Source: the human T2T-CHM13v2.0 reference genome, Homo sapiens. Taken from it: 64,000 nucleotides of DNA. The first letter of the stretch is position 1. Each line of letters begins with the position of its first letter. Shown here piece by piece: positions 46,631-53,619 of the stretch. The notes below the pieces were generated by a model. It saw only the letters and a program-made list of their open reading frames with translations, searched no databases and was not told where the DNA came from. The DNA is taken from assembly GCF_009914755.1 (NCBI RefSeq), contig NC_060939.1. One strand, 5' to 3'. The position numbers and the translations under genes are program-made.

Positions 46631-48166
46631 CGTTTTTGATCCACTGTTTGGTCTGCCAGCATAGAACTGACAATAAAATACCCAAAACATGTCCTATAAT
46701 CTCTGGGACTGGGTCACATTCACCTGTAGATCCATCCAACCATATTTAGACCCAACAAAATTTAGAGGTGGACTCAAATGCAATGATTTACCATCAGCCA
46801 CAAAGAAATATAAGGAAATTAGTCATTTTACAATTGGTATATTATAGCTAGAAGTGATATGCCACTCATTTGAAATTCTAGCTTCAAATGAAATTAAGAG
46901 CACCTATTATGAGTACCTCCTAACCTGAAAGTCTCCTAAAGGAACACTCTCTCAGCATGGACAAACATGTAAGATACACTGGAAACACTCAAACTTTTGG
47001 CAGATAAATCAGCTGCCTATAAGGTAATATTTATTACAAACCTAATACAAATACTAAGAAATAAACCCTGGAAGGCACTAAAATTAAATTTATGTTCAAT
47101 ATAAAAGTCTCAAATTTTATTTAAAATTGGGCTGTATACCTTGGCAAAATAAACCAACATAGAGAAATTGGTAACCCATGTAAAGTAATTCACAATCTAA
47201 ACAAAATGATTGGCAAGCAAGGACATAAAGGCCAAACTGGCAACAGGACCATCTAAGGCCACCATCCGGATACCAAAATAACGGGAAAGACACTCCTGAA
47301 TTCCAAGACTAAACCCACCTCTTCAGAAACAGCAGTGAAAACAGAAATTTTACAAGACATTTTTTTCTTAAATCTTGGACCCCCCCAGGCTATAATACTT
47401 GAACTTGGGGATCACAGGACATATATACACTGGCTATAGAGATAGACAAATATACACATATGGACACATTTCTTTTAGACACCAGATGACAAATAAGCCT
47501 CCTTAGATACAGCGTACCACACTTTGATACAAACATCTCTATAAAGGACTGAGGAATATTAACTAGAGTCTCCCCAGTCTCTGCTTCTATATGCACTATA
47601 AATGTATTTCTTGCATGTTTTACTGTTCACCAAAATTAGAAAACATTACAGAAATGGATTGATTGCAAAGCTTTTAAACCTGAGGTGGCTTATTAAGAAA
47701 CTAAAGGAATGAAAGTTCTCTGACCTAACACAAATTAAAATGAAACCTCTAACAGTGACTACACCCCACCAGGCTACATACACTAAACAGTACCCATTAC
47801 AGGGAATACATGAAGAAATAAAAGCAAAGGATGTGGACTCCTCAAAGAAGATATTACTATAATGGGCATATTGAATAACTTTAATTGTCCAGTATGGCCT
47901 GTCCTGAAACCAAATGAGAGCTATAGATGAACTATTGATGATACCAATTTAAATAAAGTCTCACCTAAAATGCCAGAAACATTACCAGATGTAGAATTTA
48001 TTATTACAATTTCTTACTATAATCAAAAAGACTATGTAACCATAGACTTGTTAGATAGTGTCTTTGTTTTACCAGTAAAGAAAACCAGGAATATACCAAC
48101 TTTATTTACAAAGACAAAAAATACTAATTTAAAAGTTTAATGCAAGGCAATTAAACAGCCCACTGT

Positions 48167-48471
48167 ATTTTTTTTTTTTTTTTTTGAGACGGAGTCTTGC
48201 TCTGTTGCCCAGGCTGGAGTGCAGTGGCGCAATCTCAGCTCACTGTAGGCTCCGCCTCCCAGGTTCACGCCATTCTCCTACCTCAGCCTCCCGAGTAGAT
48301 GGGACTACAGGCGCCTGCCACCATGCCCGGCTAATTTTTTTTTTTTTTTTTTGTATTTTTAGTAGAGACAGGGTTTCACCGTGTTAGGATATCCGGTTTG
48401 GATCTCCTGACCTCGTGATCCGCCTGCCTCCCAAAGTGCTGGCATTACAGGTGTGAGCCACCGCGCCTGGC
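48167..48471 (-). mobile_element. AluY inserted in the class III RT
   Basis: TSD cagcccactgtattt at 48156 and 48472. Confidence 0.95.
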
Positions 48472-50673
48472 CAGCCCACTGTATTTTATCATCACTCATA
48501 GATGAATTAAAATACACATCATTAATAATATACATACATGACATTAAATGTTAACACAATGGCCAGATAAATGTTAAACAAGAAACATCCCAATTAATAT
48601 TGCTTTTAAGATCACTGAGATAGACTATTCATATAGACAAACCACAGGCCCAGACACCAAATGCAAATTTTAAGGAGTACAACAGCCATTAGAAGGGAGA
48701 AAAGTAATGATGATAATGATAGATAAAAGCCCCTAAGGCATCAATTAACATGTAGGGCAAAGATTAGTAGGTTTATTTGGATATGGGAGACAGCATATGC
48801 CTATTTAAACATCATCCTAAAACCAATACATAAGACAACTAAGAATTTCCAAGTTCGTGTGGGGACAAAAACAAACATAAGCACTTGCAACACTGAAAGG
48901 CTACATTAACACATTTCACACTTTGCATCATCCATCTTCTGATTCACAACTTTGGTTGGAAATTCTGATGCGTGCTGAATGTGGAAAGGTCCATGGTCAT
49001 TGTGGACAAAGAAATTAGATTCTAAATTCTTCCTGCCAGTGGGATTTTGTACAATAAAATTTTCACACTAACAACAAATTAAAAGCCCATTTGAAAAATG
49101 TACATGGCCTACATGTACTTAAGATACTGAGCTTTTGCCTGGCAACAACATCATTACAGTTAGATGCTATGTGGCTCTCCTTCACTGGATAAAACTGAGT
49201 CCTGAAGAATTGACAGGTATCCAAATTGATTAAAGCTGCTCACCTGAAAATGGTGCATCCAGGGTTGAAACACTGGCCTTAAGGGTCAACCAGGTCTCCT
49301 CACTGAGGAGATTGTCAAGACTGAAATAGACTTGCCAGAATGTATTCTGAGGACAGGGACAATCCATGTCAATCTCGGCAAATGGGGCCCTGTCTGGTCT
49401 AATGTCTTGCTCAACACCTGGTTTACAGACGGATGAGCCTCCGTGACCCAAAGCCAGATCCAATGGACAAAGCAGCACTCAGATCCCAGGACCACACAAT
49501 CCTGAAGGAAGCAGATCAGTTACTCTCTGCACAGAGTGCAGGACTGATTGCAGATGTTCTAGCAGTCAGAGACTCAGTATTAGAAAAACAACATAAAATT
49601 TGCATTTTTACAGACTCATGGGCAGTTGCAAATGAAATAAACCTATGGTCACACAAATAGATACAAAATGATTTTAAAATTAATGGTAAAGATATATGGT
49701 CCAAGTTTTATTGGGAGGAAGTGAGTTATCAAACAGAATTAAGATACTTATCATACAACAGTACAACAAAAATATAATTCAGAGACCTTAAATTTTTATA
49801 ATCAAGTAGATGCATTATCAGGGAATATAACCATTGCACACAAAACACACCCCAACTAAAGCAACACAGAAATCCAGACAACTCATGGGACACTTCAGTA
49901 CCACCTCTACAATGCAGCAGAAAATTGGACAATAAATGGGAGATACCACAAGTACCCCTAATAATTATAGTAAAACAGGAAAGTGATTTTACAATTAAAC
50001 AGACACCAGAAGCAGCTTACACTTCACAAACACACCTCTAAGTATATAATGAAAAAAAGAGACTTAGGCACATGATCACTGTACAGGTGGCGATCAGACA
50101 AATTAAAAGTGGCATGGCATCAAATTCAATACGGCATAGGTAATTGTGAACAATATAAAACCAATCTAGAAAAGTATAGTTACACTAAACCCATAGACCT
50201 GGCACGTTCAACTTGGGCTAACAAAAGATTTTTATTGGATACTGAATCATCCCTACCCACAAACATATGCACTAAAAAAGCTGGATATATGTACAGCAAT
50301 TTGCATAGCAATAAAGTTAGCCACTTACCTGCCAAATACACCATCTCAGCCTTAGAATTTATGGTAGCTCACTGTGCAGCCCCTAAAAAATTTGGAAGTG
50401 ATCAGGTAACTCATTTTGCATCAAGCAATAACAGGCATTGGCAGATAAATGGGATATATAATGGAATTTTTTTTCCTACCTTATCATCTCACAGCAGCTG
50501 CATATATATAGATTTAAAATGGATTATCAAAAAGAGAATTAAAAACTTTAGGAAAAAATGAGTACAATCCAATAACCTGATACGTTTTAATTTAAAACAA
50601 TGAGAAAGACTCAATGAGAGCAACCCTACTCTTATTTTAATCAACTGACCTTAGTGGTCTTACAGAATAAGGA

Positions 50674-50968
50674 GGCTGGGTGCAGTGGCTCACTCCTGTA
50701 ATCTCAGCACTTTAGGAGGCCGAGGTGGGCAGATCACTTGAGGTCAGGAGTTCGAGACCAGCCTGAAAAGGGCATGGTGAAACCCGTTCTTTATTAAAAA
50801 TACAAAAATTAGCCAGGTGTCATGGCGGATACCTTTAATCCCAGCTACTCGGGAGGCTGAGGCATAGGAATCACTTGAACCCAGGAGGCGGAGGTTGCAG
50901 TGAGTCAAGATCATGCCACTGCACTCCAGCCTGGGTGACAGAGTGAGACCCTGTCTAAAAAAAAAAAA
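50674..50968 (+). mobile_element. AluS inserted between integrase core and C-terminal domain
   Basis: TSD agaataagga. Confidence 0.95.
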
Positions 50969-52390: not shown

Positions 52391-53085
52391 GGTTGGTTCC
52401 AAGTCTTTGCTGTTGTGAATAGTGCCACAATAAACATACGTGTGCATGTGTCTTTATAGCAGCATGATTTATAGTCCTTTGAGTATATACCCAGTAATGG
52501 GATGGCTGGGTCAAATGGTATTTCTAGTTCTAGATCCCTGAGGAATCACTACACTGACTTCCACAAGGGTTGAACTAGTTTAGAGTCCCACCAACAGTGT
52601 AAAAGTGTTCCTATTTCTCCACATCCTCTCCAGCACCTGTTGTTTCCTGACTTTTTAATGATTGTCATTCTAAACCCAAATGTTCAACAATGATAGACTG
52701 GATTAAGAAAATGTGGCACATATACACCATGGAATACTATGCAGCCATAAAAAATGATGAGTTCATGTCCTTTGTAGGGACATGGATGAAATTGGAAATC
52801 ATCATTCTCAGTAAACTATCGCAAGAACAAAAAACCAAACACCGCATTTTCTCACTCATAGGTGGGAATTGAATAATGAGAACACATGGACACAGGAAGG
52901 GGAACATCACACTCTGGGGACTGTTGTGGGGTGAAGGGAGGGGGGAGGGATAGCTTTAGGAGATATACCTAATGCTAAATGATGATTTAATGGGTACAGC
53001 ACACCAGCATGGCACATGTATACATATGTAACTAACCTGCACATTGTGCACATGTACCCTAAAACTTAAAGTATAATTAAAAAAA
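52391..53085 (+). mobile_element. L1PA3-like 3' end, 5'-inverted (junction near 52672), inserted in an AluJ tail
   Basis: antisense ORF2 52391-52672 then sense 3' end with polyA; TSD aataacagagata. Confidence 0.93.
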
Positions 53086-53332
53086 TAATAACAGAGATAA
53101 GGTCTCACTCTTTTGTCTGGGCTAGAGTGCATTGGCACCATCACAGTTCACTGTAGCTTCAAAGTCCTGGGGTCAAGTGACCCTCCCACCTCAGTCTCCT
53201 GTGAAGCTAGAACTGCAGGTCCACACCACCATGCTCAGCTCGTTTTATTTTTTATAGAGACAGGTTCACATTATGTAGTCCAGGCTGGTGTTAAACTCCT
53301 GGGCCCAAGGGATCCTCCTGCCTTGGCTTTTT
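53086..53332 (-). mobile_element. AluJ (tail split by L1, remainder at about 52370-52390)
   Basis: diverged Alu reverse complement. Confidence 0.88.
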
Positions 53333-53619
53333 AATCAGTGCATCTTCATAGAAGTTCTTTATGTATTCCTAAATACACCTTGGAAGAAAGCATACGTGAC
53401 ATGACTAAAGACGACTCACCCACCTTATATACCTACAGCCAAGCATTTGTTGACATCACAAATCAACGGACAGCACACGTAGTAGATATAGAAATACTAG
53501 TATAAACAGAAATAGCAATCAAAGGATGTCATTACATAAAAAGCCACATATCAGACCAAACACCAATTCTAGTAGCCCATATAGAACTATATATTGAAGG
53601 ATCTAAGAATTGTAATGTT

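What the first reader, a model, noticed from the sequence alone, without database searches (positions are those of the whole stretch)
46650..53600. LTR-less, A-rich class III retrovirus fossil unlike the ERV-L next to it
Seen: hand translation of the + strand gives colinear decayed motifs: gag-like NLWDWV...DMPL...KLRAP, protease FLLDTR*QISLL and ENITEMD*L, RT KQYPL/PVWPVLKP/TIDL/LMQG/YIHDI/QRLVGLFGY, RNase H WFTDG/SAQSAGL/FTDSWAVAN, integrase SDQVTHF/PYHLTAAA..NGLSK and terminal ANGHVNTYW. One 60-nt line (49801-49860) has 27 A and 7 G by hand count. Known: these signatures are those of class III ERV-L/ERV-S pol, and ERV-L is not this A-skewed. Inference: a divergent, possibly low-copy or poorly annotated class III lineage. 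Most of it is invisible in the ORF track, and it is the only provirus with coding remnants on the + strand.
Basis: partly seen in the sequence, partly recalled or inferred. Interest (0 to 1): 0.85.

Follow-up and report, generated by a model that had tools for sequence, protein, structure and literature searches.

The report
Truncated old class III retrovirus fossil
This is a dead, doubly truncated copy of an old, A-rich retrovirus family related to ERV-L that has other copies and hundreds of LTRs elsewhere in the human genome, so it is an ordinary genomic fossil.

Summary
An intact relative's Pol (P0003) aligns colinearly from 47692 to 51143, with frame changes and stops. The element is A-rich: 38% A in gag-pol against 30% for the window.

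- **Class III: supported.** The RT groups with ERV-L-type Pols. It falls outside the foamy and gamma-like rows, in a lineage without dUTPase. It differs from the dUTPase-bearing ERV-L at 29987-36843 on the minus strand.
- **LTR-less: true of this copy only.** Seven sibling loci are 66-81% identical. They carry about 1.8 kb more at the 5' end and at least 2.6 kb more at the 3' end. Two of them have LTR pairs of about 0.7 kb followed by a likely tRNA-Ser primer site.
- **Low-copy: not for the family.** The LTR has at least 204 candidate copies genome-wide, so the family is ordinary and multi-copy. LTR pairs diverge by K2P 0.21-0.27, roughly 50-60 Myr.
- **A-richness: a family trait.** Five of six siblings have 39-40% A in the pol-homologous span.

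I could not name the Dfam/Repbase family because no repeat library was available. Published data argue against HERV-L and HERV-S. The 1.5 kb after pol remains unidentified. Low interest.

The parts
46662..47468 (+). 3' part of the gag region, 5'-truncated. Called gag by position only.
Evidence: Homology to siblings starts at 46662 (chrX L013, chr4 L017) or 46675 (chr15 L014). Siblings carry about 1.8 kb more upstream that is nowhere in the window. There is no Pfam gag hit.
47469..47691 (+). Protease remnant, with the active-site motif read as D-T-R followed by a stop.
   Evidence: The motif sits at 47469-47504. By eye it resembles the LLDTGSQIS stretch of the intact relative P0004. No tblastn match was obtained for this short part.
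47692..48157 (+). Reverse transcriptase, N-terminal half (fingers and start of palm).
   Evidence: P0003 aa 43-86 and 104-181 align here, the latter at 49% identity (E 2e-18). The piece 47820-48149 pairs with the chrX sibling RT in the tree with support 99/86.
48158..48472 (-). Alu insertion splitting RT.
   Evidence: It matches many Alu-like copies in every sibling locus. It is masked in NCBI's file (hub note). Siblings are colinear across it.
48473..49373 (+). Reverse transcriptase: rest of palm (YIHDI at 48531), thumb and connection.
   Evidence: P0003 aa 265-376 and 398-542 align here (E 4e-23), with 15 stops inside the matches.
49374..49741 (+). RNase H remnant.
   Evidence: Pfam RNase_H E 9.8e-4, below cutoff. 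P0003 aa 545-629 aligns at 43.5% identity and P0155 at 53%.
50064..50673 (+). Integrase core remnant.
   Evidence: P0003 aa 720-842 aligns at 50067-50429 (E 3e-4). The motifs SDQVTHF, PYHLTAAA and NGLSK lie at 50397-50532.
50674..50970 (+). Alu insertion inside the integrase C-terminal part.
   Evidence: Alu-like matches in all sibling loci, in the opposite orientation to the Alu at 48158. Masked in NCBI's file (hub note).
50971..51176 (+). End of pol (integrase C-terminus). No dUTPase follows.
   Evidence: P0003 aa 941-978 of 989 aligns at 51030-51143 (42% identity, E 7e-4). The dUTPase parts of P0157 and P0010 find no + strand match. No Pfam dUTPase hit.
51177..52376 (+). Post-pol region of unknown coding content, including an open frame of 135 codons at 51530-51934.
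   Evidence: It is shared only with family copies. The same frame is open for 181 aa in the chr7 copy and 138 aa (one stop) in the chrX copy. No Pfam or Atlas match. Identity to siblings drops to 66-67% here, against 73-77% in pol.
52377..53332 (-). Younger insertion block: an L1 fragment plus a partial Alu.
   Evidence: 52390-52673 is 96% identical to 44686-44969. Alu-like matches cover 53094-53327. Masked 52387-53204 (hub note). Siblings are colinear across it. The L1 name rests on my reading of the minus-strand frames (recalled).
53333..53606 (+). Last piece of the post-pol region. The element is cut off at 53606.
   Evidence: It matches chrX (74.8%), chr7 and chr19 siblings up to 53604-53606. 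Siblings continue for at least 2.6 kb to a 3' LTR, and none of that is in the window.

Best explanation
Window 46662-53606 is a dead fragment of one provirus from an old, multi-copy class III (ERV3, ERV-L-related) endogenous retrovirus family.

**The family.** A full member is about 12 kb. It has LTRs of about 0.7 kb (TG...CA), a primer-binding site that fits tRNA-Ser, and gag-pro-pol without dUTPase. A post-pol region of about 4.8 kb of unidentified content precedes the 3' LTR. Its pol is A-rich (39-40% A).

**This copy.** It has lost the 5' LTR with about 1.1 kb of leader and gag, and the last 2.6 kb or more with the 3' LTR. It was later split by two Alus and an L1/Alu block. Every gene carries stops and frame changes. 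It lies in an intron of the lncRNA PWRN4 and overlaps no exon.

**Shown:** the pol homology, the class, the truncation, the siblings with LTRs, the family-wide A-richness, and the absence of dUTPase.

**Inferred:**
- It arose by germline integration some 50-60 Myr ago.
- The truncations are later deletions or rearrangements.
- It does nothing now.
- The family is already catalogued under a name I could not look up.
For: **Pol colinearity.** Seven tblastn matches of P0003 cover aa 43 to 978.

**Siblings.** The own-genome search found seven other loci: chr15:22.35 Mb, chr4:181.37 Mb, chrX:51.55 Mb, chr7:135.80 Mb, chr1:248.32 Mb, chr3:15.11 Mb and chr19:19.86 Mb. Identity is 66-81%.

**Truncation.** Siblings share about 1.8 kb upstream and at least 2.6 kb downstream of the window's end points. 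None of this occurs anywhere in the 64-kb window.

**LTRs.**
- LTR pairs: chr4 at 77.5% identity over 537 aligned positions, and chrX at 80.4% over 547.
- Termini read TGT...ACA.
- A genome search with the LTR gave 204 first-look candidates. All 40 scored matches reached E 4e-91 or better.

**Primer-binding site.**
- The chrX and chr4 copies read TGGCATAGTCAGC directly after the 5' LTR.
- Its complement, with Y at the two CpG sites, joined to a T-loop motif hits the genome 11 times, against 0 for the reversed control.
- The four loci examined (of six made from the hits) each have a tRNA gene there. ARAGORN calls three of them tRNA-Ser and one tRNA-Phe.

**Class.**
- The chrX sibling RT best matches foamy-virus PR-RT structures (7kse, E 2e-16, 63 bits). 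HIV-1 RT scores 33 bits.
- Pfam RVT_1 hits it at E 4e-11.
- In the RT tree of 38 rows, the window piece pairs with chrX (99/86) and the family has support 98/95.
- The family is sister to a dUTPase-less group that includes a Peromyscus protein (100/99).
- That clade is sister to ERV-L-type rows (100/99). Simian foamy virus and the MLVIN_C-bearing rows fall outside.

**No dUTPase.**

**A content.** Five of six siblings have 39-40% A in the pol-homologous span. The sixth has 34.7%.

**Age.** LTR K2P of 0.208 and 0.270 gives 47 and 61 Myr at 2.2e-9 per site per year. The rate is recalled, not from a call.
Against: - No repeat library was available, so the claim that the family is already named is an inference from copy number, not a result.
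- The window copy alone gives no retroviral hit against PDB chains and only a sub-threshold Pfam hit. Class assignment leans on siblings 73-77% identical to it and on one 110-residue window piece with a long branch (1.5) in the tree.
- The primer-binding-site match covers only the first 13 of 18 positions. It needs two CG-to-CA changes, and positions 14-18 do not fit. One of the four tRNA loci examined was called tRNA-Phe by ARAGORN.
- No target-site duplication could be read at the chr4 provirus.
- The gag call rests on position only.
- The internal-copy count (8 loci) is a lower bound from a search that scores only the best candidates.
Confidence: 0.8

Rival explanations
1. It is a copy of the HERV-S group (HERV18/LTR18, or the related HERVL32 or HERVL66). 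These are the known dUTPase-less human class III ERVs, which carry a class I-type env.
For: - HERVS is described with a tRNA-Ser primer site, no dUTPase and an env after pol (Vargiu 2016 supplement, part read; Kojima 2018 passages).
- This family also has a Ser-like primer site and no dUTPase.
- It also has a long post-pol region.
Against: - Published HERVS chains have 25.3% A (range 24-26, n=16). This family has 37-40%.
- The published HERVS, HERVL and HERVL66 Pol readings show DLANAFF...SPTIC-type RT motifs. This family reads D(M/L)xDMFFAIP...SP(V/I)IAH. That comparison was made by eye.
- No immunosuppressive-domain-type env signal was found by Pfam or PDB search in sibling post-pol regions.
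- The sibling LTR start, the end of its 5' LTR and both primer-site words are absent from the group sequences held in the supplement. Those sequences are cut at 400 characters.
Confidence: 0.08
2. It belongs to a class III lineage that has never been described or is missing from Dfam/Repbase.
For: - It fits none of the class III groups in Vargiu 2016 by composition or RT motifs.
- In that survey only 11 of 216 class III chains have more than 31% A, and 0 of 86 canonical HERVL do.
- The internal part was found at only 8 loci.
Against: - The LTR has at least 204 candidate copies and 40 of 40 scored strong matches. Human repeat families of that abundance are catalogued as a rule (established knowledge, not tested here).
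- Kojima 2018 lists many human ERV3 internal families left 'unclassified' that I could not compare: HERVL40, HERVL74, LTR52-int, LTR53-int, LTR57-int, MER68-int, MER70-int, MER76-int.
- Vargiu 2016 state that their detector is not optimised for class III elements.
Confidence: 0.07
3. It is an endogenous foamy virus (a true spumavirus relative) rather than an ERV3/ERV-L relative.
For: - The best solved-structure match of the sibling RT is foamy-virus PR-RT.
- The genome is A-rich and large (about 12 kb), with several kb after pol.
Against: - In the RT tree the simian foamy virus Pol (P0179) lies outside the clade that joins this family to ERV-L-type rows at 100/99.
- P0003, the intact relative, is 25% identical to foamy Pol but 33% identical to ERV-L-type Pols.
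- PDB holds no ERV-L structure, so foamy virus is simply the nearest solved relative.
- Kojima 2018 state that no endogenous foamy virus was found in the human genome.
Confidence: 0.02

Closest known systems
HERV-L / ERV-L (MLT2-flanked; Repbase HERVL, ERVL, ERVL-B4, ERVL-E)
   Same: - It belongs to the same class. Its RT clade is sister to dUTPase-bearing ERV-L-type Pols with 100/99 support.
- It shares RT motifs of the LPQGY, YIDDI and LVGLFG(F/Y) type with the published HERVL Pol reading.
- No CCHC zinc knuckle was found in 0 of 5 copies scanned, as is typical of ERV3 (Chong 2014, Table 1).
   Different: - It has no dUTPase after integrase.
- It has 37-40% A, against 28.2% for HERVL.
- Its primer site fits tRNA-Ser rather than Leu or Met.
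- It has several kb after pol.
- The window's own ERV-L at 29987-36843 shares only about 30-35% amino-acid identity with this family's relatives over RT.
[quoted passage not shown]
   Same: - Class III.
- No dUTPase.
- tRNA-Ser primer site (for HERVS).
- Additional sequence after pol.
   Different: - Base composition is 25.3% A, against 37-40% here.
- RT motifs differ by eye.
- Their class I-type env signature was not found here.
Unnamed dUTPase-less Pol group P0003 and P0151-P0156, including Peromyscus eremicus LOC131911818 (P0153)
   Same: - These are the nearest intact relatives. Their clade joins this family at 100/99.
- All seven scanned proteins have RVT_1, RNase_H and rve, and none has dUTPase.
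   Different: - They are only about 30% identical to the sibling RT reading.
- They are intact proteins from a rodent and from unnamed contigs, whereas the human copies are decayed.
- Their genomic context and composition could not be seen.
Foamy viruses (Spumaretrovirinae)
   Same: - Nearest solved RT structure.
- A-rich, large genome with sequence after pol.
   Different: - It lies outside the ERV3 clade in the RT tree.
- No foamy protease or env family was detected.

Membership tests
Class III ERV (ERV3 in the sense of Chong 2014 and Kojima 2018) | RT groups with mammalian ERV-L-type elements rather than gamma/epsilon, beta/lenti or foamy viruses. | tested here: met
   Tree of 38 rows and 354 columns. 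A clade of 21 rows (this family, the P0003 group and ERV-L-type rows) has support 100/99. The foamy row and the MLVIN_C-bearing rows fall outside. The only window sequence in the tree is a 110-residue piece with a long branch.
Class III ERV (ERV3) | No zinc-finger (CCHC) motif in Gag and no GPY/F motif after integrase. | tested here: inconclusive
   No CCHC pattern was found in 0 of 5 copies (window and four siblings, three frames each). The GPY/F strings found lie outside the integrase end. The copies are decayed, so absence is weak evidence.
Class III ERV (ERV3) | 5-bp target-site duplication. | tested here: inconclusive
   The window copy has no LTRs. At the chr4 provirus the five bases on either side do not match, which is uninformative at about 22% LTR divergence.
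ERV-L lineage (HERV-L, MuERV-L) | dUTPase domain downstream of integrase. | tested here: not met
   No Pfam dUTPase hit in the three + frames. The dUTPase parts of P0157 and P0010 find no + strand tblastn match, but they do match the neighbouring minus-strand ERV-L. Pol ends about 11 residues after the match to P0003's C-terminus.
ERV-L lineage (HERV-L) | Unbiased composition (published canonical HERVL: A 28.2%, range 26-31). | tested here: not met
   36.8% A overall and 38.4% in gag-pol. Siblings have 34.7-39.9%, against the Vargiu 2016 supplement sheet.
HERV-S (HERV18/LTR18) | tRNA-Ser primer-binding site. | tested here: met
   Met in siblings only, because the window copy lacks this part. 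Eleven of the first 13 positions match, and both mismatches are CG to CA. Positions 14-18 do not match.
HERV-S (HERV18/LTR18) | Class I-type env with an immunosuppressive domain of the LQNRMALD type. | tested here: inconclusive
   Pfam and PDB searches of sibling post-pol frames found nothing, and Pfam found nothing in the window. Decay could hide it.
HERV-S (HERV18/LTR18) | Composition and Pol sequence of the published group (A 25.3%; DLANAFF...SPTIC RT motifs). | tested here: not met
   Composition. Motifs were compared by eye between and the supplement passages. No alignment was made, because paper sequences could not be entered.
Spumavirus / endogenous foamy virus | RT and Pol group with foamy viruses; foamy-type protease and env. 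| tested here: not met
   Simian foamy virus Pol falls outside the ERV3 clade. No Spuma protease or foamy env Pfam hit.
A named Dfam/Repbase internal family (for example HERVL40, HERVL74, LTR52-int, LTR53-int, MER70-int, MER76-int, ERV3-16A3_I) | Contiguous nucleotide match to the family consensus or profile. | not testable with these tools
   No Dfam or Repbase library was held. Names come only from Kojima 2018, Table 4.

The most novel reading that the evidence does not exclude
The family could be a third human class III lineage, distinct from both HERV-L and HERV-S. Its features are:
- A-rich pol (about 39% A).
- No dUTPase.
- tRNA-Ser priming.
- About 12 kb in length.
- About 4.8 kb after pol. 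This contains at least one formerly open frame, and a stretch that differs more between copies (66-67%) than pol does (73-77%), as a fast-evolving env or accessory gene would.
- Intact relatives still present in a rodent.

If no repeat library or paper has characterised it beyond a consensus entry, its post-pol genes would be an undescribed gene set of an ERV-L-related virus.
Probability: 0.07. Interest if true: 0.45.

Novelty: already known. Interest (0 to 1): 0.15.

Why it matters
It matters little for this locus. The element is an inert intronic fossil in PWRN4, with no intact gene and no LTR promoter.

The useful results are corrective. 'LTR-less' is a truncation of this one copy, not a trait of the lineage. 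'Low-copy' is true only of the internal part.

One point has minor value for people who study ancient viruses. The human genome holds an A-rich, dUTPase-less relative of ERV-L, and what it encoded after pol is not identifiable with Pfam or PDB searches. If a Dfam lookup shows that region is uncharacterised, the better-preserved siblings (chrX, chr7, chr4) and the intact rodent relatives would be the place to study it.

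Tried and rejected
**Searches that found nothing**
- Pfam on the three + frames of 46000-54000, with X at stops, gave only a sub-threshold RNase_H hit.
- phmmer of the three window frames against PDB chains gave only Alu-derived or chance hits.
- The word-indexed protein search with the sibling RT found nothing. The exhaustive search did find relatives.
- tblastn of the window's own frames against the window was swamped by Alu matches.

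**The env hypothesis**
- I saw strings in sibling post-pol frames that looked like an immunosuppressive domain and a membrane anchor (printouts).
- Pfam and PDB gave no support, so I do not claim an env.
- The Atlas search of the 135-aa frame gave no usable hit.

**The repeat at 46262-46628 as a 5' LTR**
- I first took this abundant repeat for a 5' LTR.
- It is absent from all seven sibling loci.
- It reads as a class I integrase N-terminal fragment on the minus strand. I rejected the LTR reading.

**Other dead ends**
- No target-site duplication was readable.
- Looking for the sibling LTR start, the end of its 5' LTR and the primer-site words in the Vargiu 2016 supplement gave 0 occurrences.
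- The main table of that paper, with proviral coordinates, is an .xls file that could not be read. I could not check whether this locus or its siblings are listed there.

**Not attempted**
- I did not test for a G-to-A editing signature, because it would have needed a majority sequence of the copies.

Full report
**What is there**

The window is human T2T chr15:21,700,001-21,764,000 (hub note; confirmed). The line 49801-49860 has 27 A and 7 G.

The motifs are not chance.
- An intact 989-aa Pol from the protein library (P0003) gives seven colinear tblastn matches.
- These run from aa 43-86 at 47692-47826 to aa 941-978 at 51030-51143, with E 2e-18, 4e-23, 3e-4 and 7e-4.
- They use frames 1,3,2,3,2,3,3 and contain 19 stops.

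Taken alone, the window copy is too broken for ordinary searches. Pfam gives only RNase_H at E 9.8e-4, below its cutoff. The three frames find no retroviral chain in PDB.

**Extent and inserts**

Homology to other genomic copies runs from 46662 to 52376 and from 53333 to 53606. Three younger insertions interrupt it:
- an antisense Alu at 48158-48472,
- a sense Alu at 50674-50970,
- an L1-plus-Alu block at 52377-53332 (hub masking note).

Without them the element is 5377 bp. It has 36.8% A overall and 38.4% A in gag-pol, against 29.8% for the window.

**It is one of a family, and the family has LTRs**

Searching the same genome found seven other loci that match the pol or post-pol part at 66-81% identity: chr15:22.35 Mb, chr4:181.37 Mb, chrX:51.55 Mb, chr7:135.80 Mb, chr1:248.32 Mb, chr3:15.11 Mb and chr19:19.86 Mb. 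These counts are lower bounds.

The siblings extend beyond the window copy at both ends.
- About 1.8 kb upstream is shared among five of them.
- At least 2.6 kb downstream is shared among four.
- None of that sequence occurs anywhere in the 64-kb window.

Two siblings have flanking direct repeats: chr4 at 77.5% identity over 537 aligned positions, and chrX at 80.4% over 547. Alignments of the repeat ends show an LTR of about 0.7 kb that starts TGT and ends ACA.

A genome search with the chrX 5' LTR returned 204 first-look candidates. All 40 scored matches reached E 4e-91 or better, and most cover nearly its full length at 75-81% identity. So 'LTR-less' describes a doubly truncated copy, not the lineage. 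The family is an ordinary LTR family with many solo LTRs.

**Primer-binding site**

Directly after the 5' LTR the chrX and chr4 siblings read TGGCATAGTCAGC.
- I searched the genome with its complement (Y at the two CpG sites), joined to a tRNA T-loop motif that I recalled. It hit 11 times, against 0 for the reversed control.
- The four loci examined (of six made from the hits) each hold a tRNA gene ending there. ARAGORN calls three tRNA-Ser (UGA or AGA) and one tRNA-Phe.
- The fit is 11 of the first 13 positions, with both mismatches CG to CA. Positions 14-18 do not fit.
- I read this as a probable tRNA-Ser primer site.

**Class**

The chrX sibling keeps about 385 codons of RT in one frame. 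With X at stops, its results are:
- It best matches foamy-virus PR-RT structures (7kse, E 2e-16, 63 bits). HIV-1 RT scores about 33 bits.
- It hits Pfam RVT_1 at E 4e-11.
- An exhaustive protein search found 3908 proteins at E 1e-3 or better, 143 at 1e-10 or better and 5 at 1e-30 or better.

The best long hits (P0001, P0003, P0004) are intact Pols about 30% identical. P0003's nearest relatives (P0151-P0156, 42-52% identity) include Peromyscus eremicus LOC131911818. All seven scanned proteins of this group have RVT_1, RNase_H and rve, and none has dUTPase. Two more distant relatives, P0157 and P0010, do carry dUTPase after integrase.

An IQ-TREE of 38 RT rows (354 columns) gives the following placement:
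- The window piece 47820-48149 pairs with the chrX sibling (99/86).
- The human family has support 98/95.
- The family is sister to the dUTPase-less group (100/99).
- That pair is sister to the ERV-L-type rows (100/99).
- Simian foamy virus, the MLVIN_C-bearing class I rows and a lentivirus-like pair fall outside.

The window piece fills only 30% of the columns and has a long branch. Its placement rests mainly on its 73-77% nucleotide identity to the siblings.

**Comparison with the neighbouring ERV-L and with published groups**

The minus strand at 29987-36843 matches the dUTPase-type Pol P0157 at 34-54% identity, including part of the dUTPase region. A further fragment lies at 16464-16699.

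In the + strand element, pol ends about 11 residues after the match to P0003's C-terminus. No dUTPase is detectable.

A-richness is a family trait. Five of six siblings have 39-40% A in the pol-homologous span, and the sixth has 34.7%.

What the papers say (passages and supplement parts read, not whole texts):
- Vargiu 2016 give 28.2% A for 86 canonical HERVL chains and 25.3% for 16 HERVS chains.
- In that survey only 11 of 216 class III chains exceed 31% A, and 0 of 86 canonical HERVL do.
- HERVS has a Ser primer site, no dUTPase and a class I-type env.
- Kojima 2018 describe an ERVL lineage with dUTPase and an ERVS lineage without. They list further human ERV3 internal families as unclassified.
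- Chong 2014 note that the presence of dUTPase and env varies among ERV3 lineages.

By eye, the published HERVL, HERVS and HERVL66 Pol readings share RT motifs (DLANAFF, SPTIC) that this family lacks. I therefore place it in ERV3 but in neither HERV-L nor HERV-S. I could not name it, because no Dfam or Repbase library was at hand and paper sequences could not be entered.

**The part after pol**

Window 51177-52376 plus 53333-53606 (1474 bp; 32.6% A, 31.1% T) matches only family copies, at both DNA and protein level. One frame is open for 135 codons here, 181 codons in the chr7 copy and 138 codons (one stop) in the chrX copy.

Identity to siblings falls to 66-67% over 50973-52151, against 73-77% in pol. 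That pattern fits a gene that was diverging quickly before integration. This is an inference.

In the full-length siblings, about 4.8 kb lies between pol and the 3' LTR. Pfam, PDB and Atlas searches found nothing in it. I do not claim an env.

**Age and state**

LTR pairs give K2P 0.208 (chrX) and 0.270 (chr4). At 2.2e-9 per site per year (a recalled rate) that is about 47 and 61 Myr. The window copy has no LTR, no intact frame in gag, pro or pol, and lies in a PWRN4 intron away from the listed exons (hub note). It most likely does nothing.

**Flanks**

The 5' break abuts a 365-bp minus-strand fragment at 46262-46628.
- It belongs to a very abundant element (2239 first-look candidates).
- It reads as a class I integrase N-terminus (P0175, E 3e-5).
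- It is absent from all seven sibling loci, so it is not this element's LTR.

The 3' break abuts another old repeat at 53607-54444 (222 first-look candidates). How the two truncations arose cannot be told from this sequence.

**Verdict**

The class III call and the contrast with ERV-L are supported. 'LTR-less lineage' and 'low-copy' are not. This is an ordinary, almost certainly catalogued fossil. What remains open is the family's name and what it encoded after pol.

Noticed in passing
window 46262-46628 (minus strand); junction 46616-46645: A 365-bp fragment of a very abundant element (2239 first-look candidates at 76-83% identity). It reads as the N-terminal zinc-binding part of a class I integrase (tblastn P0175, E 3e-5). 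It abuts the 5' break of the finding, and a 30-nt inverted repeat spans the junction.
   Followed up: partly
window 29987-36843 (minus strand) and 16464-16699 (minus strand): A decayed ERV-L of the dUTPase type. It matches Pol P0157 at 34-54% identity, from RT to the dUTPase region. A separate short fragment matches the Pol C-terminus at 59-71% identity.
   Followed up: partly
window 44686-44969 and 52390-52673: Two stretches 96% identical in direct orientation, 7704 bp apart. They read as fragments of a young L1 on the minus strand (my reading, recalled). They are not LTRs of the element.
   Followed up: partly
window 53607-54444: An old repeat directly after the 3' break, with 222 first-look candidates at 66-78% identity. 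Five copies lie nearby on chr15 (21.92-22.24 Mb) at 68-70% identity. The family was not identified.
   Followed up: no
window 45880-46263: This stretch matched only three other places, all on chr15 (21.95, 22.06 and 22.26 Mb), at 76-78% identity. It may be part of an old regional duplication or a low-copy repeat.
   Followed up: no
L013/L022 (chrX) and L016 (chr7), just after the 5' LTR: The primer-site-like word and the following bases occur twice in tandem in the chrX and chr7 siblings, but not in the chr4 or chr15 ones.
   Followed up: no
protein P0153 (Peromyscus eremicus LOC131911818) and P0003, P0151-P0156: Intact dUTPase-less Pols form the sister group of the human family. This suggests the lineage stayed active much later in rodents.
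   Followed up: partly
L017 8102-9019 (chr4 sibling, just before the 3' LTR): A fairly open frame ends in a hydrophobic stretch that looks like a membrane anchor. Pfam and PDB gave no support for it.
   Followed up: yes
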